Assembly: GCF_947495075.1 (NCBI RefSeq)
Contig: NZ_CANLXH010000004.1
DNA from: an uncultured Croceitalea sp.
GTDB lineage: Bacteria > Bacteroidota > Bacteroidia > Flavobacteriales > Flavobacteriaceae
Length of the DNA stretch: 64,000 nt
Strand: one strand, 5' to 3'
Shown: one piece after another, positions 6,365 to 13,306 of the stretch
How positions within the stretch are numbered: the stretch's first letter is position 1
Layout of the letters: each line of letters opens with the position of its first letter
Notes under the pieces: generated by a model
Database searches by the model: none
Seen by the model: only the letters and a program-made list of their open reading frames with translations
Told to the model about the DNA's origin: nothing
Position numbers and translations under genes: made by a program

Positions 6365-6440
6365 TTAATACTAATTATTGAAAAAAAAATTAAAATATCC
6401 TGTCAAATACGGTGATATATTTATTTATAACACGTGTTTG

Positions 6441-6471
6441 TTTGATAGTTTAAAATTGATTTCTATATTTG
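6441..6471 (+). promoter_or_regulatory. trp operon promoter
   Basis: TTTG 6441-6444, 19-nt spacer, TATATTTG 6464-6471. Confidence 0.75.
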
Positions 6472-6476
6472 ACCTA

Positions 6477-6530
6477 ATGAAAACAATAAACAAAAATTGG
6501 TGGTGGATTAATTTACGACGTATTTCGTGA
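6477..6530 (+). CDS. trpL: trp operon leader peptide MKTINKNWWWINLRRIS
   Basis: Not in ORF track. Three tandem TGG codons (6498-6506), directly upstream of a terminator and trpE. Confidence 0.9.
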   Translation: MKTINKNWWWINLRRIS

Positions 6531-6554
6531 ACCAGTCCCTATTAAAAAAAAATA

Positions 6555-6585
6555 AAGGCTTGTCATCACGACAAGCCTTTTTTAA
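6555..6585 (+). terminator. trp attenuator terminator
   Basis: AAAGGCTTGTC-ATCAC-GACAAGCCTTT followed by a T-rich tail. Confidence 0.9.
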
Positions 6586-6601: not shown

Positions 6602-7999
6602 ATGAAATTTAATTTAAAGACCTTCCATAAAAAAATACTTGCAGACACAATTACTCCTGTAAGTATTTATCTAAAAATAAGGGATAAATTTCCAAACAGC
6701 ATTCTATTGGAAAGTAGCGACTACAGGGCAAACGACAACAACTTTTCTTATATCTGTTGTAACCCTATTGCATCTATTAAAGTTGAAAACGAAGTCATTT
6801 CTAAAGAATATCCAGATGGCTCAAAAGAAGATATTAAAGTTACTAGCGATATTGACATCACTCAAGAACTTAATGCTTTTAGCCAGCAATTTTCAACTAC
6901 AAATCAAGACTTTAAGTTTATTACTAATGGGCTTTTTGGTTTTATGGCCTATGATGCCGTTCGTTATTTTGAAGATGTCAAAATATCAAAAAAGGATAAC
7001 TCCATAGCTATCCCAGATTTATACTACGCAGTTTATCAAAATGTAATTGCCATAAATCATTTTAAAAACGAAGCATATCTTTTTGCTCACTGTTTTAATT
7101 CGGAGAATAATATTCCTCAATTAGAACAAGTATTAAAAGTGAGAAGTTTTGCTTCCTATAATTTCTCTAAAGATGGTGATGTTAAAACCAACCTAGAAGA
7201 TCAAGCTTTTAAAGAACATGTAGCCCTTGCAAAAAAACATTGTCAACGTGGCGATGTTTTTCAATTAGTACTATCTAGAAGGTTCTCTCAAGGGTTCAAA
7301 GGAGATGAGTTTAACGTGTACCGTGCGCTACGCTCTATTAATCCATCACCATATCTTTTCTTTTTTGATTATGGTAATTTTAAAATATTTGGAAGCTCAC
7401 CAGAGGCTCAGCTTATCGTAAAAGAAGGTAAAGCCGAGATTCATCCTATTGCAGGCACCTATAAACGTACCGGTAATGATGAACAAGACGCAGCGTTAGC
7501 AAAACAATTAGCTGAAGATGATAAGGAAAATAGTGAGCATGTCATGTTAGTGGATTTAGCAAGGAACGACTTAAGTAGAAATGGTAATCTTGTAAATGTG
7601 GAAACCTACCGTGAGGTTCAGTACTTCTCTCATGTAATTCATTTAGTATCAAAAGTAACTGGGATAAAAAAGCCCAATATTTCTACCTTAAAAATTGTTG
7701 CTGATACTTTTCCGGCAGGCACTTTAAGTGGAGCACCTAAACACATGGCTATGCAACTTATCGAAAAATATGAAAAAACCAGTAGAGGGTATTACGGAGG
7801 TGCTATAGGCTTTATGGATTTCAATGGTAATTTTAACCATGCTATTATGATTAGAACATTTTTAAGCAAAAACCATGAGTTACATTTTCAAGCTGGAGCA
7901 GGTATAGTAGCAGCTTCAGATGCAGAAGACGAATTACAAGAAACATATAACAAATTAGGAGCCCTAAATAAAGCGCTTGAAATTGCTGAAACCATCTAG
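6602..7999 (+). CDS. trpE: Anthranilate synthase component I
   Basis: ILLES, GDVFQLVLS, SINPSPY, PIAGT, EHVMLVDLARND, FPAGTLSGAPK. Confidence 0.95.
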   Translation: MKFNLKTFHKKILADTITPVSIYLKIRDKFPNSILLESSDYRANDNNFSYICCNPIASIKVENEVISKEYPDGSKEDIKVTSDIDITQELNAFSQQFSTTNQDFKFITNGLFGFMAYDAVRYFEDVKISKKDNSIAIPDLYYAVYQNVIAINHFKNEAYLFAHCFNSENNIPQLEQVLKVRSFASYNFSKDGDVKTNLEDQAFKEHVALAKKHCQRGDVFQLVLSRRFSQGFKGDEFNVYRALRSINPSPYLFFFDYGNFKIFGSSPEAQLIVKEGKAEIHPIAGTYKRTGNDEQDAALAKQLAEDDKENSEHVMLVDLARNDLSRNGNLVNVETYREVQYFSHVIHLVSKVTGIKKPNISTLKIVADTFPAGTLSGAPKHMAMQLIEKYEKTSRGYYGGAIGFMDFNGNFNHAIMIRTFLSKNHELHFQAGAGIVAASDAEDELQETYNKLGALNKALEIAETI

Positions 8000-8566
8000 A
8001 TGAAAAGAAAGATATTAATGATAGATAATTACGACAGTTTTACCTACAATTTGGTCCACTATCTTGAAGATTTAGATTGCGAGGTTATTGTAAAAAGAAA
8101 TGACCAATTAACACTTGAAGAAGTGGATGCTTTTAAAGAAATTGTACTCTCTCCTGGACCTGGTATTCCAGATGAAGCTGGACTACTAAAAGAAATCATT
8201 TCAACATATTCCGGCAAAAAACGTATTCTAGGTGTTTGTCTAGGGCAACAAGCTATTGGCGAAGTTTTTGGAGGTAGTTTAATAAATCTAGACCAAGTAT
8301 ATCATGGGGTAGCTACAAATATCGAAATTATAAAAGAAGATTATATTTTTAAAGGTCTTCCTAAACAAATAGAAGTTGGTAGGTATCATTCATGGGTAGT
8401 AAACTCAGATTTACCAGATAATTTAGAAGCTACTTCTTTTGATGAAAACGGGCAGGTAATGTCTTTAAGGCATAAAGAATTTGATATTAGAGCTGTACAG
8501 TTTCATCCAGAATCGGTTCTAACACCACAAGGGAAGCAAATATTGAAAAATTGGATTATGGGCTAA
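8000..8566 (+). CDS. trpG: Anthranilate synthase component II (glutamine amidotransferase)
   Basis: IDNYDSFTYN, SPGPG, GVCLG, RYHS, QFHPES. Confidence 0.95.
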   Translation: MKRKILMIDNYDSFTYNLVHYLEDLDCEVIVKRNDQLTLEEVDAFKEIVLSPGPGIPDEAGLLKEIISTYSGKKRILGVCLGQQAIGEVFGGSLINLDQVYHGVATNIEIIKEDYIFKGLPKQIEVGRYHSWVVNSDLPDNLEATSFDENGQVMSLRHKEFDIRAVQFHPESVLTPQGKQILKNWIMG

Positions 8567-8570
8567 AACC

Positions 8571-8637
8571 CAGATATCAGTAGCCAGTATTTAGTACTGA
8601 GTGTATGCTAAATACTCAATACTAATATCTAAATACA
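8571..8637. repeat. Inverted array of degenerate 7-mers (trpG-trpD spacer)
   Basis: cagatat|cagtagc|cagtatt|tagtact|gagtgta-tgct-aaatact|caatact|aatatct|aaataca. Confidence 0.7.
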
Positions 8638-8644
8638 ACAAAAA

Positions 8645-9640
8645 ATGAAAGAAACACTAAATAGACTTATTAATCACGAAATTCTTGAAAAAGAAGATGC
8701 TAAACAAATTTTGGTAAACATTGCCAAAGGTGATTATAATACAAGCCAGATAGCCGCATTTTTAACGGTTTATATGATGCGTAGCATTACTATTGAAGAA
8801 TTAGAAGGCTTCCGAGATGCATTGTTAGAATTATGCTTAGCCATAGATTTATCTAAGTATAACCCAATTGATTTATGTGGTACTGGTGGTGATGGTAAAG
8901 ACACTTTTAATATTTCTACATTATCTTCTTTTGTAACCGCAGGAGCTGGTATAAAAGTTACTAAACATGGAAATTATGGAGTTTCCTCAAAATGTGGTAG
9001 TAGTAATGTGATGGAGTTTCTAGGCATCAAATTTAGTAATGAGGCAGGCTTTCTAAAAAAATCTATTGAGGAGGCTGGGATTTGTGTACTACATGCTCCT
9101 TTATTTCACCCAGCCATGAAAAACGTTGCGCCTATAAGAAGAGAATTAGCCGTAAAGACTTTCTTTAACATGCTAGGACCAATGGTGAATCCTGCTTTTC
9201 CAAAAAACCAAATGGTAGGTGTTTTTAATTTAGAATTGGCTAGAATGTACGGGTATCTGTATCAGAATACGGATAAGAATTTTACCATTCTACATGCACT
9301 TGATGGTTACGATGAGATAAGTTTAACAGGAGATACAAAAACAATTTCTAATGGTACAGAGGCAATTATAAAACCTTCGGACTTTAATATTAAACCGGTA
9401 CGTGCAAATGAAATTACTGGAGGTGATGATGTTGCAGATTCTGCCCAAATTTTTATTGATGTATTAAGCGGTAAAGGCACCGAAGCTCAAAACAATGTAG
9501 TTTGTGCAAATGCAGGTATTGCTATTTCTACAGTTGAAGGTATCAGTCCAATACAGGGATTTGAGAAAGCAAAAGAATCGTTATTAAGTGGTAAGGGTTT
9601 AAAAGCATTAAAGAAATTACAGGAACTGAGTAAGAAATGA
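8645..9640 (+). CDS. trpD: Anthranilate phosphoribosyltransferase
   Basis: DLCGTGGDG..TFNIST, KHGN..VSSKCGS. Confidence 0.95.
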   Translation: MKETLNRLINHEILEKEDAKQILVNIAKGDYNTSQIAAFLTVYMMRSITIEELEGFRDALLELCLAIDLSKYNPIDLCGTGGDGKDTFNISTLSSFVTAGAGIKVTKHGNYGVSSKCGSSNVMEFLGIKFSNEAGFLKKSIEEAGICVLHAPLFHPAMKNVAPIRRELAVKTFFNMLGPMVNPAFPKNQMVGVFNLELARMYGYLYQNTDKNFTILHALDGYDEISLTGDTKTISNGTEAIIKPSDFNIKPVRANEITGGDDVADSAQIFIDVLSGKGTEAQNNVVCANAGIAISTVEGISPIQGFEKAKESLLSGKGLKALKKLQELSKK

Positions 9641-9715
9641 TATCATGTCGAACGCATGTGAGACATCTCAATCAAAATTGGATTTCTCAATCGCTTCGCT
9701 CATGTCGAAATGACA
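9638..9715. repeat. REP-like imperfect palindrome (trpD-trpC spacer)
   Basis: Left TATCATGTCGAACGCATGTGAGACATC, right GATTTCTC...GTCGAAATGACA. Confidence 0.65.
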
Positions 9716-9725
9716 TTTATAACAA

Positions 9726-10511
9726 ATGAATATATTAGATAAAATAATAGCCGATAAGTACAAGGAAGTTAATCTAAAAAAATCACTTATCCCCATTTCA
9801 CAATTGGAGCAGTCTAAATTGTTCGGTAGAGATGTAAAATCATTAGCTACAGCACTTAGGAGCAGTAGTACCGGAATAATAGCAGAGCATAAAAGACGTT
9901 CCCCATCTAAAGGCACTATAAACCAGAATACGAATGTAGGGCAAGTTGCGATTGGATATCAAAATGCTGGTGTTTGTGGCATGAGTGTCTTGACAGATAT
10001 CAAGTATTTTGGTGGTTCACTAGAAGATTTACAATTGGCACGAGCATCTGCTGAGATGCCATTATTACGCAAAGAATTTATCATAGATGAATACCAAATT
10101 TTAGAGGCCAAGTCAAACGGGGCAGATGTAATTTTACTAATAGCCGCAGTTTTATCCAAAGAAGAAATAAAAGTCTTTTCTGAGCTTGCAAAAAGTTTAC
10201 ATTTAGATGTTTTGTTAGAAGTTCATAACGAAGAGGAATTGCAGAAATCCATAATGCCAAGTTTAGATATGCTTGGTGTAAATAATCGAGATTTAAAAAC
10301 CTTTGAAGTTAGTCTGAATACTAGTAAAGAATTATCAAAACAGATTCCTGATGATTTTGTAAAAGTTTCTGAAAGTGGAATTAGCTCTATTGAAGCCATC
10401 CAAGATTTAAAACAGTTTGGGTACCAAGGTTTTCTGATTGGTGAAAACTTTATGAAAACGGAAAATCCTGGAAAAAGTGCACTAGATTTTATTAATGAAT
10501 TAAAAAAATAA
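9726..10511 (+). CDS. trpC: Indole-3-glycerol-phosphate synthase
   Basis: IAEHKRRSPSKG, SVLTD, LLRKEFI, GVNNRDL, VSESGI. Confidence 0.95.
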   Translation: MNILDKIIADKYKEVNLKKSLIPISQLEQSKLFGRDVKSLATALRSSSTGIIAEHKRRSPSKGTINQNTNVGQVAIGYQNAGVCGMSVLTDIKYFGGSLEDLQLARASAEMPLLRKEFIIDEYQILEAKSNGADVILLIAAVLSKEEIKVFSELAKSLHLDVLLEVHNEEELQKSIMPSLDMLGVNNRDLKTFEVSLNTSKELSKQIPDDFVKVSESGISSIEAIQDLKQFGYQGFLIGENFMKTENPGKSALDFINELKK

Positions 10512-10603
10512 CATCATTTCGAGTGATTTGTGATAGTAAATCGTATCGAGAAAAGCGAGCCTCGATACATTCTAAAATAATTTCCAAAACACTCGACCTA
10601 ACA
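10511..10603. repeat. Multi-arm palindromic element, copy 1 (trpC-trpF spacer)
   Basis: Outer TCGAGTG 10519-10525 / CACTCGA 10590-10596; inner GTATCGAG 10543-10550 / CTCGATAC 10561-10568. Confidence 0.7.
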
Positions 10604-10623
10604 TAATAAAATTAAAATAATTA

Positions 10624-11307
10624 ATGGAGTATTATTATACCAATAAAGACAAAAAATCAATAATAAAGGGAGCTAAATCTCTTAAGTTAAAAGTCTGTGG
10701 TATGAATAAAAATATCTCAGCGGTGGCAACATTAAAGCCAGATTACTTAGGTTTTATTTTTTGGAAACCATCAAAACGCTATTTTAATAATGAAATACCA
10801 GCTATCCCGCATAGCATTAAAAAAGTAGGTGTTTTTGTCGATGCAAAAATATCAGAAATCAAGCATTTGGCCGAGCAATTTGAGCTGCTCTATGTTCAGC
10901 TGCATGGGAAGGAAAGTCCTGCTTTTTGCGATGAACTAAAAAAGCAAGTTCCACAACTAAAAATTATTAAGGTTTTTTCAATCAAAGACGACTTCAACTT
11001 TGAACAATTAAGACATTTTGAAGATGTATGTGATTTCTATTTATTTGATACCAAAGGAAAATTACCTGGCGGCAATGGCTATGTTTTTAATTGGTCTGTC
11101 TTAAAAAACTATCCATCTACCAAACCCTACTTTTTAAGTGGAGGAATTGGGTTAAACGAATTAGAATCAATACGTGAATTTCTAAAAAGACCAGAATCTC
11201 AATACTGTCACGCTATAGATGTAAATAGCAAATTTGAAATAGAGCCTGGATTGAAGGATATTGAAAAACTAAAAGAATTTAAACGAGCATTGTTAAGTAC
11301 TGATTAA
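10624..11307 (+). CDS. trpF: Phosphoribosylanthranilate isomerase (with about 20-aa N-terminal extension)
   Basis: KLKVCG, VGVFV, VQLHG.ES, LFDT, LSGG, DVNSKFE. Confidence 0.92.
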
Positions 11308-11308
11308 T

Positions 11309-12490
11309 ATGAATTATCACGCAGACGAAAAAGGATATTATGGAGAATTTGGGGGAGCATTTATTCCAGAGATGCTTTACCCAAATGTAGAAGAGTTACG
11401 CCAAAAATATTTGGACATCATGTATGAAGAATCTTTTCAAGAAGAGTTTCATCAGCTATTAAAAGATTATGTGGGTAGACCTTCTCCTTTATATTTTGCT
11501 AACAGGCTTTCGAAAAAACATAATTGCAGAATTTATTTAAAACGAGAAGACTTAAACCATACGGGAGCCCATAAAGTCAACAATACTATTGGCCAGATTT
11601 TAATGGCTCAAAAACTAGGTAAAAAACGAATCATAGCAGAAACTGGTGCCGGGCAGCACGGCGTAGCTACAGCCACTGTTTGTGCTTTAATGGGTATGGA
11701 ATGTATTGTATATATGGGCGAAATCGATATTGCTCGCCAAGCTCCCAACGTTGCTCGTATGAAAATGTTAGGAGCAGAAGTGAGACCAGCGCTATCTGGG
11801 AGTAGAACTTTAAAAGATGCCACTAATGAGGCTATTCGCGATTGGATTAATAACCCTGTAGACACCCACTATATTATTGGCTCTGCTATTGGTCCTCACC
11901 CTTATCCAGATATGGTAACGCGTTTTCAATCAGTGATTTCAGAAGAGATAAAATGGCAACTAAAAGAAAAAGAAGGACGTGAAAATCCTGATTATGTGGT
12001 AGCCTGTATTGGTGGTGGCAGTAATGCTGCTGGCACCTACTATCATTTTCTTGATGAACCGGAAGTAGGCATTATAGCTGTTGAGGCAGCTGGAAAAGGT
12101 GTAGAAACAGGCGAAAGTGCTGCTACTTCGGCATTAGGTAAAGTAGGTATTATTCACGGTTGTAAAACTATGCTGATGCAAACAACCGACGGACAAATAA
12201 CCGAACCGTATTCCATCTCAGCAGGGCTGGATTACCCTGGTGTAGGCCCTATGCATTCGCATTTACATAAATCTGGTCGAGCGGAATTTTACTCTGCAAC
12301 GGATGATGAAGCCATGACAGCAGGATTAGAACTCTCACAATTGGAAGGTATTATTCCAGCTATAGAAACAGGACATGCCTTTGCGATTTTCGACCATAAA
12401 AAATTTCAACCGGAAGATGTAGTTGTTATTAGTTTATCTGGGCGAGGAGATAAAGATTTACAAACCTATATTGATTACTTTAAATTATAG
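11309..12490 (+). CDS. trpB: Tryptophan synthase beta chain
   Basis: [39 protein letters not shown]. Confidence 0.97.
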
Positions 12491-12538
12491 ATTTTAGTAT
12501 TGAGAATTCTAAATACTAATATCTCAAATCTTATTACT
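12488..12538. repeat. Inverted array of degenerate 7-mers (trpB-trpA spacer)
   Basis: tagattt|tagtatt|gagaatt-ct-aaatact|aatatct|caaatct|tattact; same units as 8571-8637. Confidence 0.65.
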
Positions 12539-12544
12539 TAACAA

Positions 12545-13306
12545 ATGAATAGAATTCATCAAAAATTACAAGAGGATAAAAAACTCCTCTCTATATATTT
12601 CACAGCAGGTTATCCAAGTTTAAACGACACCGTCCATATTATCCAGAAATTAGAAAAAAACGGTGTAGACATGATAGAGATTGGATTACCTTTTAGTGAT
12701 CCTTTAGCAGATGGGCCGACTATCCAAGATAGCTCTACCTCCGCCTTGAAAAATGGGATGACTACTGAAAAACTTTTTGAACAATTAAAAGACATTCGTA
12801 AGTCAGTTTCCGTTCCACTTATTGTCATGGGCTATTTTAATCCGATGCTTCAATACGGAGTGGAAGCCTTTTGTAAAAAATGTGCCGAAATTGGTATCGA
12901 CGGAATTATCATGCCAGATTTACCTTTAGATGTATATCAGTCAGATTATGAAGCAACCTTTAAAAAATACGGTCTCATCAATGTATTCTTGATTACGCCG
13001 CAGACCAGTGATGAACGCATTCGTAAAATTGATGAAGCCTCAGATGGTTTTATTTATATGGTAAGTTCCGCAAGTGTTACCGGCTCAAAATCAGGCTTTG
13101 GAAATGAGCAAACCGACTACTTTGAGCGTATTGCAAAAATGAACTTAAAAAATCCACAGATTGTAGGTTTTGGTATTAAAGATGCAGAAACCTTTCGGCA
13201 GGCGACAAAAACAGCCAAAGGTGCAATTATAGGGTCAGCTTTTATTAAATATCTAACTTCCAAAGGAGTGGAAGCTATAGCTAGTTTTGTTAAGACCATC
13301 AGATAA
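12545..13306 (+). CDS. trpA: Tryptophan synthase alpha chain
   Basis: EIGLPFSDPLADGPTIQ, MGYFNP, VSSASVTG, VGFGI. Confidence 0.97.
   Translation: MNRIHQKLQEDKKLLSIYFTAGYPSLNDTVHIIQKLEKNGVDMIEIGLPFSDPLADGPTIQDSSTSALKNGMTTEKLFEQLKDIRKSVSVPLIVMGYFNPMLQYGVEAFCKKCAEIGIDGIIMPDLPLDVYQSDYEATFKKYGLINVFLITPQTSDERIRKIDEASDGFIYMVSSASVTGSKSGFGNEQTDYFERIAKMNLKNPQIVGFGIKDAETFRQATKTAKGAIIGSAFIKYLTSKGVEAIASFVKTIR

What the first reader, a model, noticed from the sequence alone, without database searches (positions are those of the whole stretch)
6441..6585. Unannotated trp attenuator whose leader peptide is probably translated from a leaderless mRNA
Seen: MKTINKNWWWINLRRIS starts only 5 nt after the TATATTTG -7 box, so transcription should begin at or near the ATG. 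Mutually exclusive pairings are visible: TTACGA 6513-6518 with TCGTGA 6525-6530; TCGTGA with TCACGA 6567-6572 (anti-terminator); and terminator 6555-6585. Known: ribosome-mediated trp attenuation, and Bacteroidota largely not using Shine-Dalgarno sites. Inference: this is a compact attenuator driven by leaderless initiation.
Basis: partly seen in the sequence, partly recalled or inferred. Interest (0 to 1): 0.65.

Follow-up and report, generated by a model that had tools for sequence, protein, structure and literature searches.

The report
Trp attenuator with a probably leaderless leader peptide
This is the already catalogued Bacteroidota tryptophan leader-peptide switch in front of trpEGDCFBA; its promoter sits so close to the leader start codon, with the same spacing in over 100 species, that the mini-gene is very probably read from an mRNA with almost no 5' leader, which has not been measured.

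Summary
A 17-codon ORF (6477-6530, MKTINKNWWWINLRRIS) begins 5 nt after a canonical -7 box (TATATTTG, 6464-6471). A -33 TTTG lies 19 nt upstream of the box. An intrinsic terminator (6554-6585) and trpEGDCFBA follow.

The attenuator is not new. It matches Rfam RF01692 (Bacteroid-trp) at 49.8 bits, just over the cut-off of 49.

In 67 relatives the terminator shows compensatory changes. The Trp codons sit inside a protector hairpin.

The leaderless idea has strong indirect support only:
- All 16 genomes of the genus have exactly 5 nt between box and ATG.
- In a family sample of 117 trp leaders, spacing 5 occurs 30 times, against 2 at 4 and 1 at 6. The rest spread over 7-21 nt.
- At least 118 species across three families share the layout.
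- The 5-nt spacer has the same start-site profile (pyrimidine, then A) as the first 5 nt after the box in leadered homologues.
- It lacks their A-rich upstream region.

Published Flavobacterium maps place the box at -12 to -5. That predicts a start at A6476 or A6477, a 0-1 nt leader. Leaderless trp leaders are known in other phyla.

The parts
6395..6428 (+). Weakened remnant of the intrinsic terminator of the upstream YceI-family gene (ATATCCTG...CGGTGATAT plus an interrupted T-run)
   Evidence: Relatives in the genus carry a clean hairpin plus a T7 run at the aligned position, about 10 nt upstream of the -33 element. In the window it does not fold convincingly.
6441..6444 (+). -33 promoter element TTTG
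   Evidence: It lies 19 nt upstream of the -7 box. It is conserved in the genus alignment and in other genera with the 5-nt spacing. The consensus is as quoted in PMC6847099.
6464..6471 (+). -7 promoter element TATATTTG (Bacteroidota primary sigma factor, consensus TAnnTTTG)
   Evidence: Invariant in 13 of 13 aligned genus members. Present as TATATTTG or TATCTTTG in all fetched loci with the 5-nt spacing.
6472..6477 (+). Spacer ACCTA and predicted transcription start (A6476, or A6477, the A of the ATG)
   Evidence: Published maps place the box at -12 to -5 (PMC6847099, PMC9723704). The spacer profile is pyrimidine at -2 and A at -1 in 118 species. The first 5 nt after the box in leadered homologues show the same profile. 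This is an inference, not a measurement.
6477..6530 (+). Leader peptide ORF MKTINKNWWWINLRRIS with stop codon
   Evidence: Homologous ORFs with 7-8 codons before WWW occur in 67 relatives.
6498..6506 (+). Three consecutive Trp codons TGGTGGTGG (the sensor)
   Evidence: Invariant columns in the 67-sequence alignment A1.
6497..6545 (+). Protector (anti-antiterminator) hairpin: outer helix 6497-6509 with 6534-6545, inner helix 6512-6518 with 6525-6531
   Evidence: Minimum-energy fold. Inner helix: 75% of cells paired, 24 cells with changes on both sides, 0 of 500 shuffles as good. Trp codons pair with bases at or after the stop codon in 56 of 67 homologues.
6525..6571 (+). Antiterminator: UCGUGAAC 6525-6532 and AGUC 6534-6537 pair with GGCU.GU 6557-6563 and UCACGA 6566-6571. 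It takes up the terminator's 5' arm, its loop and the first two bases of its 3' arm.
   Evidence: Fold with a ribosome masked at the Trp codons and the RNA cut at 6575: -11 kcal/mol. Six core pairs are kept in 62-65 of 67 sequences. A second helix is 72% paired with compensatory changes. It forms in 65 of 65 homologues under the same mask.
6554..6585 (+). Intrinsic terminator (11-bp stem, 5-nt loop, T-run)
   Evidence: 97.4% of cells paired, 25 cells with changes on both sides, 0 of 500 shuffles as good.
6602..13306 (+). Regulated operon: trpE 6602-7999, trpG 8000-8566, trpD 8645-9640, trpC 9726-10511, trpF 10624-11307, trpB 11309-12490, trpA 12545-13306
   Evidence: ORF list and NCBIfam matches.

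Best explanation
This is a ribosome-mediated transcription attenuator of the trpEGDCFBA operon and a member of the Bacteroid-trp family. RNA polymerase starts at a canonical Bacteroidota promoter (-33 TTTG, 19 nt, -7 TATATTTG). The predicted start is A6476 or A6477, so the transcript begins with, or one base before, the AUG of a 17-codon leader ORF. A ribosome must therefore load on the 5'-terminal AUG, which is leaderless-type initiation. When Trp-tRNA is plentiful, the ribosome runs to the UGA. That stop codon lies inside the antiterminator strand UCGUGA and covers it. If no ribosome is present, the protector hairpin (Trp codons with 6534-6545, UUACGA with UCGUGA) holds the same strand. Either way the terminator 6554-6585 forms and transcription stops. 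When Trp-tRNA is scarce, the ribosome stalls on the three UGG codons. The stall opens the protector hairpin and frees UCGUGA and the following bases. These pair with the terminator's 5' arm and loop (UCACGA), and transcription reads into trpE. Shown here: the sequence elements, their conservation and pairing statistics, and the exact conserved promoter-to-AUG spacing. Inferred: the start-site position, leaderless initiation and the Trp response.
For: Family and context: RF01692 scores 49.8 bits against a cut-off of 49, E = 3.8e-5, and the trp genes lie downstream.

Structure: the fold has z = -6.5. The terminator has 25 compensatory cells. The antiterminator core pairs in 62-65 of 67 sequences, including a G-C to A-U double change, against 49% or less when the partner is slid. 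A second antiterminator helix and the inner hairpin also covary. With a stalled ribosome masked, the antiterminator forms in 65 of 65 homologues.

Leaderless start:
- The box-to-ATG spacing is 5 nt in all 16 genomes of the genus and in two further genera. The codon count before WWW stays at 7-8 whatever the spacing.
- In a family sample of 117 leaders the spacing is 5 in 30, 4 in 2 and 6 in 1, with the rest spread over 7-21.
- All fetched loci with spacing 5 carry a proper -7 box and a -33 element.
- At least 118 species have an in-frame TATATTTG-N5-ATG...WWW, among them Weeksellaceae and Chitinophagaceae with quite different terminators. They use 64 different spacer sequences of one constant length.
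- The spacer profile A-N-S-Y-A matches the first 5 nt after the box in 55 leadered homologues (A-M-C-Y-A). Those leadered homologues have about 70% A at each of positions -1 to -8, whereas the spacing-5 class has 12-13% A at -2 and -3.
- Published start-site maps place the box at -12 to -5.
- Relatives have the upstream gene's terminator about 10 nt before the -33 element, which leaves room for this promoter only.
- In this genome, first ATGs of long ORFs peak sharply 4-6 nt after a box (26, 9 and 11), against 1-3 at spacings of 8-12. Six of these genes align from residues 1-8 to profile positions 1-5: DapF, RsmI, DinB, TatD, Map and LpxD.
- There is no other in-frame ATG, GTG or TTG between 6477 and the Trp codons.
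Against: No transcription start or RNA-seq data were available for this organism or for any species with the 5-nt spacing. In the window itself the upstream terminator is degenerate, so read-through from the YceI-family gene could add leadered transcripts. The antiterminator core is almost invariant, so covariation support for it is thin, with 2 double changes. The Rfam score is only just above threshold, with several non-canonical pairs in the model's helix. The genome-wide leaderless peak is at spacing 4 and not 5, so the trp leader may carry one extra 5' base; its effect on initiation in this phylum is unknown. The hisG and pheA leader ORFs of the same genome show no such promoter adjacency.
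Confidence: 0.72

Rival explanations
1. The attenuator is real, but the working transcripts are leadered. They would start at an unrecognised upstream promoter or read through from the YceI-family gene. The leader AUG would then be used as an internal start without a Shine-Dalgarno site, as for ordinary Bacteroidota genes.
For: The upstream gene's terminator is degenerate in this species. Bacteroidota need no Shine-Dalgarno site, and most of their mRNAs are leadered (PMC6847099, PMC9723704). No start site has been measured.
Against: The exact 5-nt spacing across at least 118 species, with 64 different spacer sequences, would be unexplained. The bases before the AUG lack the A-rich context of leadered homologues. 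Relatives terminate the upstream gene cleanly just before the -33 element. No other canonical TAnnTTTG box lies in the 112-nt intergenic region.
Confidence: 0.15
2. Transcription starts at or after the AUG, so the ORF is not translated. The element would then be a constitutive or protein/RNA-controlled terminator, or a small RNA, and the WWW codons would be incidental.
For: Start-site choice can vary by a base or two. The attenuated transcript could also act as a small RNA, as rnTrpL does in S. meliloti (PMC7298713).
Against: TGGTGGTGG, the in-frame ATG 7-8 codons upstream and a stop codon inside UCGUGA are kept in 67 of 67 homologues, while synonymous and neighbouring positions vary. The ORF frame is kept across three families. 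A pyrimidine-then-A start-site profile lies just before the ATG.
Confidence: 0.05
3. The constant 5-nt spacing is only shared ancestry, a frozen arrangement in one clade, and says nothing about where transcription starts or about function.
For: Many of the genera with spacing 5 share MK...(V/Q)(N/H)TWWW-type peptides and so are probably related.
Against: The spacer sequence has diverged to 64 variants while its length has not changed, whereas the leadered class varies freely from 13 to 21 nt. The same spacing occurs in Weeksellaceae and Chitinophagaceae, whose peptides and terminators are unrelated.
Confidence: 0.08

Closest known systems
Rfam RF01692 Bacteroid-trp (Bacteroidete tryptophan peptide leader RNA; Weinberg et al. 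2010, PMC2864571). Also mapped upstream of trpE in Flavobacterium psychrophilum (PMC9723704, PMC6414381).
   Same: The location before trp genes in Bacteroidota, the short ORF with three Trp codons, the hairpin over the Trp codons and the terminator beginning AAAGGCUUGUC. The score is above the family cut-off.
   Different: Here the first ~20 model positions are the untranscribed -7 box and spacer, not RNA. In F. psychrophilum 16 nt separate the box from the ATG, against 5 nt here. I found no family description or paper that discusses the start site or leaderless initiation.
Escherichia coli trpL attenuator (Yanofsky model; described from my own knowledge and as summarised in PMC4007540)
   Same: A leader ORF with consecutive Trp codons. 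A protector (1:2), an antiterminator (2:3) and a terminator (3:4) that exclude one another. The stop codon is placed so that a terminating ribosome blocks segment 2.
   Different: No sequence or Rfam relationship (RF00513 did not match). Three Trp codons rather than two. No Shine-Dalgarno site and essentially no 5' leader. The promoter is of the Bacteroidota -33/-7 type.
Leaderless leader-peptide attenuators in other phyla: Sinorhizobium meliloti trpL/rnTrpL (5' end is the ATG; PMC7298713); Deinococcus deserti trpEGD leader (start at -1) and 13 others (PMC4007540); mycobacterial polycysteine leaderless sORFs (bioRxiv 10.1101/834739)
   Same: The regulatory mini-ORF starts at, or one base from, the 5' end of the transcript. 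Ribosome loading on a 5'-terminal AUG drives the attenuation decision.
   Different: Those cases have mapped start sites; this one does not. They come from phyla in which leaderless mRNAs are common or Shine-Dalgarno use is normal. In Bacteroidota leaderless mRNAs are reported as a small minority: 5.5% in F. psychrophilum, and 3.7% of 5'UTRs shorter than 10 nt in B. thetaiotaomicron. I found no report of a leaderless leader peptide in this phylum.

Membership tests
Rfam RF01692 Bacteroid-trp | Covariance-model score at or above the curated gathering score of 49 bits | tested here: met
   49.8 bits, E = 3.8e-5, model positions 1-131, window 6457-6564. The whole-genome search gave the same hit. 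The margin is small.
Rfam RF01692 Bacteroid-trp | Lies directly upstream of tryptophan biosynthesis genes in a member of Bacteroidota | tested here: met
   trpE starts 17 nt after the terminator's T-run and trpGDCFBA follow. Relatives are Flavobacteriaceae.
Rfam RF01692 Bacteroid-trp | Short ORF with consecutive Trp codons overlapping the conserved hairpin | tested here: met
   WWW at 6498-6506 sits inside the 6497-6545 hairpin. TGGTGGTGG is invariant in 67 homologues.
Ribosome-mediated (leader-peptide) transcription attenuator | Intrinsic terminator between the leader ORF and the first structural gene | tested here: met
   An 11-bp G+C-rich stem plus T-run at 6554-6585. Compensatory changes in 25 cells, 0 of 500 shuffles as good.
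Ribosome-mediated (leader-peptide) transcription attenuator | An antiterminator that excludes the terminator and is itself blocked by a protector helix or a terminating ribosome | tested here: met
   UCGUGA pairs either with UUACGA or with UCACGA in the terminator loop and 3' arm. Masked-ribosome folds give the antiterminator in 65 of 65 homologues. Covariation in the core helix is sparse because both strands are nearly invariant.
Ribosome-mediated (leader-peptide) transcription attenuator | Read-through rises when charged tRNA-Trp is scarce | not testable with these tools
   Needs Term-seq, northern blots or a reporter with and without Trp. In F. psychrophilum the trpE operon is highest in minimal media (supplement of PMC9723704).
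Leaderless mRNA | Transcription start at, or within about one base of, the start codon | not testable with these tools
Indirect evidence: the box sits at -12 to -5 in two Flavobacterium maps, which puts +1 at 6476; the spacing and the pyrimidine-A profile are conserved.
Leaderless mRNA | AUG start codon with no alternative in-frame start before the functional codons | tested here: met
   ATG at 6477, and no in-frame ATG, GTG or TTG before the Trp codons. ATG is present in all 16 genus members, which were found by the Rfam search and not by an ATG-containing pattern.
Leaderless mRNA | The organism shows other evidence of leaderless genes | tested here: met
   First ATGs of ORFs of 80 aa or more peak 4-6 nt after TAHHTTTG (46 genes) and dip at 8-12 nt. 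Six of them match family profiles from their first residues. This is a prediction from sequence, not transcript data.

The most novel reading that the evidence does not exclude
A large share of Bacteroidota use 5'-end-dependent (leaderless, 0-1 nt leader) initiation for the trp leader peptide. This covers about a quarter of sampled Flavobacteriaceae trp leaders, plus Weeksellaceae and Chitinophagaceae. The promoter-to-AUG distance would be fixed to the nucleotide by selection. In that case transcription start and ribosome loading are physically coupled as part of the attenuation timing, and ribosomes of this phylum without Shine-Dalgarno use translate leaderless mRNAs efficiently. I found no report of either point for this phylum.
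Probability: 0.6. Interest if true: 0.5.

Novelty: new member of a known kind. Interest (0 to 1): 0.38.

Why it matters
The attenuator itself is ordinary and already in Rfam. The added value is a clean, testable natural case of leaderless translation in Bacteroidota, where initiation works without Shine-Dalgarno pairing and leaderless mRNAs are reported as rare. The single-nucleotide conservation of promoter-to-AUG spacing across three families implies that the initiation mode is under selection. It also gives a compact regulatory module of about 110 nt for genetic tools in flavobacteria. For annotation, the 5' part of Rfam hits in these species is promoter DNA and not RNA. The same genome is predicted to express about 46 ordinary genes, dapF, map, dinB and lpxD among them, from leaderless transcripts.

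Tried and rejected
2. The held supplements of the F. psychrophilum transcriptome paper list the trp leader only by its Rfam coordinates, with no start site. That species has 16 nt between box and ATG in any case.
3. Literature searches for start-site maps of Zobellia or other Flavobacteriaceae with the 5-nt spacing found nothing usable.
4. A genome-wide scan for other amino-acid-rich mini-ORFs next to -7 boxes was too noisy to interpret.
5. The hisG and pheA leaders of this genome (MRKQNIHHHIVTHA, MTKTYFWNGYYFYFFFKRDTGLL) have no canonical box 4-6 nt upstream, so I dropped the idea that all leader peptides here are leaderless.
6. The sigma-70 consensus scan is irrelevant for this phylum and I ignored it.
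7. The other weak Rfam hits (STnc370, RsaE and others) lie far below their cut-offs and merely reflect the terminator hairpin.
8. A T-box or protein-mediated mechanism was considered and rejected. No such motifs scored, and the coding frame with invariant WWW is conserved.

Full report
**What is there**

- An ORF at 6477-6530 encodes MKTINKNWWWINLRRIS.
- It starts 5 nt (ACCTA) after TATATTTG at 6464-6471.
- A TTTG at 6441-6444 lies 19 nt upstream of that box. This is the canonical Bacteroidota -33/-7 promoter layout quoted in PMC6847099.
- A strong intrinsic terminator follows: stem 6554-6564 with 6570-6580, then T's.
- Downstream lie trpE, trpG, trpD, trpC, trpF, trpB and trpA.
- The 114-nt region folds at -33 kcal/mol, z = -6.5 against shuffles.

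Only one coordinate was off: TCACGA is at 6566-6571, not 6567-6572.

**It is a known family**

The region matches Rfam RF01692, 'Bacteroid-trp' (Bacteroidete tryptophan peptide leader RNA), at 49.8 bits. The gathering score is 49 and E = 3.8e-5. The family comes from Weinberg et al. 2010 (PMC2864571). It has also been noted upstream of trpE in Flavobacterium psychrophilum (PMC6414381, PMC9723704). The model hits 41 of 61 related genomes. So the attenuator as such is not new.

**Mechanism**

I aligned the leader, from ATG to T-run, of 67 homologues from the genus, the family and beyond (A1).
- TGGTGGTGG is invariant.
- The terminator is 97.4% paired, with 25 cells changed on both sides. None of 500 shuffles did as well.
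Its six core pairs are standard in 62-65 of 67 sequences, against 49% or less when the partner is slid. There is one clean G-C to A-U double change. The conservation of a terminator loop sequence is itself telling.
- A second antiterminator helix pairs the bases after the stop codon with the terminator's 5' arm. It is 72% paired and shows compensatory changes.
- UCGUGA can alternatively pair with UUACGA upstream. That helix is 75% paired, with 24 double-change cells and 0 of 500 shuffles as good.
In 56 of 67 homologues the Trp codons pair with bases at or after the stop codon.
- I masked a ribosome stalled on the Trp codons and cut the RNA before the terminator's 3' arm is complete. The antiterminator then forms in the window (-11 kcal/mol) and in 65 of 65 homologues (mean -13.5 kcal/mol).
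- The UGA stop lies inside UCGUGA, so a terminating ribosome covers the antiterminator strand.

This is the classical three-state attenuator logic. The Trp response itself is inferred.

**The leaderless question**

I could not get transcript data. The indirect evidence is strong.

1. Within the genus, all 16 genomes have exactly 5 nt between the box and the ATG. The leader keeps 7-8 codons before WWW whatever the spacing.
2. A pattern scan covered 401 genomes of the family. In a sample of 117 trp leaders from it, the spacing is sharply multimodal:

| Spacing, box to ATG (nt) | Leaders |
|---|---|
| 4 | 2 |
| 5 | 30 |
| 6 | 1 |
| 7-11 | 27 |
| 12-13 | 4 |
| 14-21 | 53 |

3. Every fetched locus with spacing 5, from about 25 genera, has a proper TATATTTG or TATCTTTG box and a -33 TTG(TTTG) element.
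   - Hits include Flagellimonas, Maribacter, Zobellia, Cellulophaga, Eudoraea, Gillisia, Psychroflexus and Zunongwangia.
   - Outside the family they include Chryseobacterium, Kaistella, Bergeyella and Cloacibacterium, and also Niabella and Chitinophaga. These have unrelated peptides and terminators but trpE downstream.
5. The spacer has 64 different sequences but one length. Its profile is A, N, C/G, pyrimidine (86%), A (80%).
   - The first five bases after the box in 55 leadered homologues have the same profile: A, A/C, C, pyrimidine (75%), A (69%).
   - This is what a discriminator plus a pyrimidine/purine start site would look like. It places +1 on the A just before the ATG.
6. The leadered homologues have about 70% A at each of positions -1 to -8, the A-rich context that promotes initiation in this phylum (PMC6847099). 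The spacing-5 class has 12-13% A at -2 and -3, so it has lost the ordinary initiation region.
7. Two independent Flavobacterium maps place the box at -12 to -5: F. johnsoniae (4 or 5 nt between element and start, G at -5) and F. psychrophilum. That predicts +1 at A6476, or A6477 with 5-nt spacing.
8. In most genus members the upstream YceI-family gene ends in a clean hairpin plus T-run about 10 nt before the -33 element, which leaves room for this promoter only.
9. In this genome, first ATGs of ORFs of 80 aa or more peak at 4-6 nt after a TAHHTTTG box (26, 9 and 11). They drop to 1-3 at 8-12 nt and rise again at 14-24 nt. Six of the short-spacing genes (dapF, rsmI, dinB, tatD, map, lpxD) align with family profiles from their first residues. 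The organism therefore appears to use leaderless genes.

**Caveats**

- In the window itself the upstream terminator is degenerate, so some leadered read-through transcripts are possible.
- The genome-wide peak is at spacing 4 while the trp leaders prefer 5. The trp mRNA probably carries one extra 5' A, as does the Deinococcus deserti trp leader, whose start is at -1.
- The hisG and pheA leader ORFs of this genome do not show the arrangement.
- The Rfam score is marginal.

**Comparison and novelty**

Leaderless leader peptides are established elsewhere:
- Sinorhizobium meliloti trpL, where the 5' end of rnTrpL is the ATG (PMC7298713);
- D. deserti, with 14 leader peptides including trpEGD (PMC4007540);
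- mycobacterial polycysteine sORFs (bioRxiv 10.1101/834739).

For Bacteroidota, the papers I could search report leaderless mRNAs as a small minority, and none mentions a leaderless leader peptide. I therefore class this as a new member of a known kind. It is a known attenuator family with a probable, phylum-new but mechanistically familiar, leaderless start.

An earlier agent's note names the genome Croceitalea; I did not verify that.

**Verdict**

The attenuator is a known family. Leaderless (0-1 nt leader) initiation is likely, at about 0.7, but unmeasured. Interest is modest.

Noticed in passing
L029:60-400 (G039, another family of the same order); also G056:C116:2070-2331: Two tandem Trp leader ORFs lie before trpE (385), each with WWW and its own terminator. 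The first is MQKINTIWWWQSKL at 102 with a terminator at 182-214. The second is MLNNKINNWWWPVLTQYAGQSCYNII at 235 with a terminator at 322-357. This looks like a doubled attenuator.
   Followed up: partly
whole genome G000 (e.g. C1:875072+, C2:749067+, C2:530350-, C2:1204547-, C3:28550+, C1:721562-): About 46 long ORFs have their first ATG 4-6 nt after a TAHHTTTG box, with a trough at 8-12 nt. They include dapF, rsmI, dinB, tatD, map and lpxD, whose products match family profiles from residue 1-8. These are predicted leaderless housekeeping genes.
   Followed up: partly
window 6395-6428: The intrinsic terminator of the upstream YceI-family gene is clean in most genus relatives (ATCCTGC...GCGGGAT plus T7). 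In this genome it has decayed to a mismatched stem and an interrupted T-run.
   Followed up: partly
window 6457-6476: The first ~20 positions of the Rfam Bacteroid-trp model align to the -7 box and spacer. In species with the 5-nt spacing that part of an Rfam annotation is promoter DNA and not transcribed RNA.
   Followed up: no
G000 C1, 162 nt upstream of hisG (C1:1207913-1208455, minus strand), and C3, 143 nt upstream of pheA (C3:131593-132129, minus strand): Candidate His leader (MRKQNIHHHIVTHA, followed by a terminator-like hairpin) and Phe/Tyr leader (MTKTYFWNGYYFYFFFKRDTGLL, followed by a hairpin plus T-run). Neither has a canonical -7 box 4-6 nt upstream.
   Followed up: partly
family scan, (e.g. 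L062-L069): A second discrete class of trp leaders has exactly 8 nt between box and ATG (10 genomes), which implies 5'UTRs of only 3-4 nt. In this genome such lengths are rare among ordinary genes.
   Followed up: no
L071 and L144 (Niabella hibiscisoli, N. defluvii): Read from the ATG, these leaders give ...LFGGG... instead of ...LFWWW... as in the neighbouring Niabella species (L078, L137). This suggests a one-base shift in the leader ORF.
   Followed up: no
L024:1482-1603 (minus strand; G033): The leader ORF appears to begin with TTG where ATG stands in its homologues: (M)NTNLNITWWW, 18 nt after the box.
   Followed up: no
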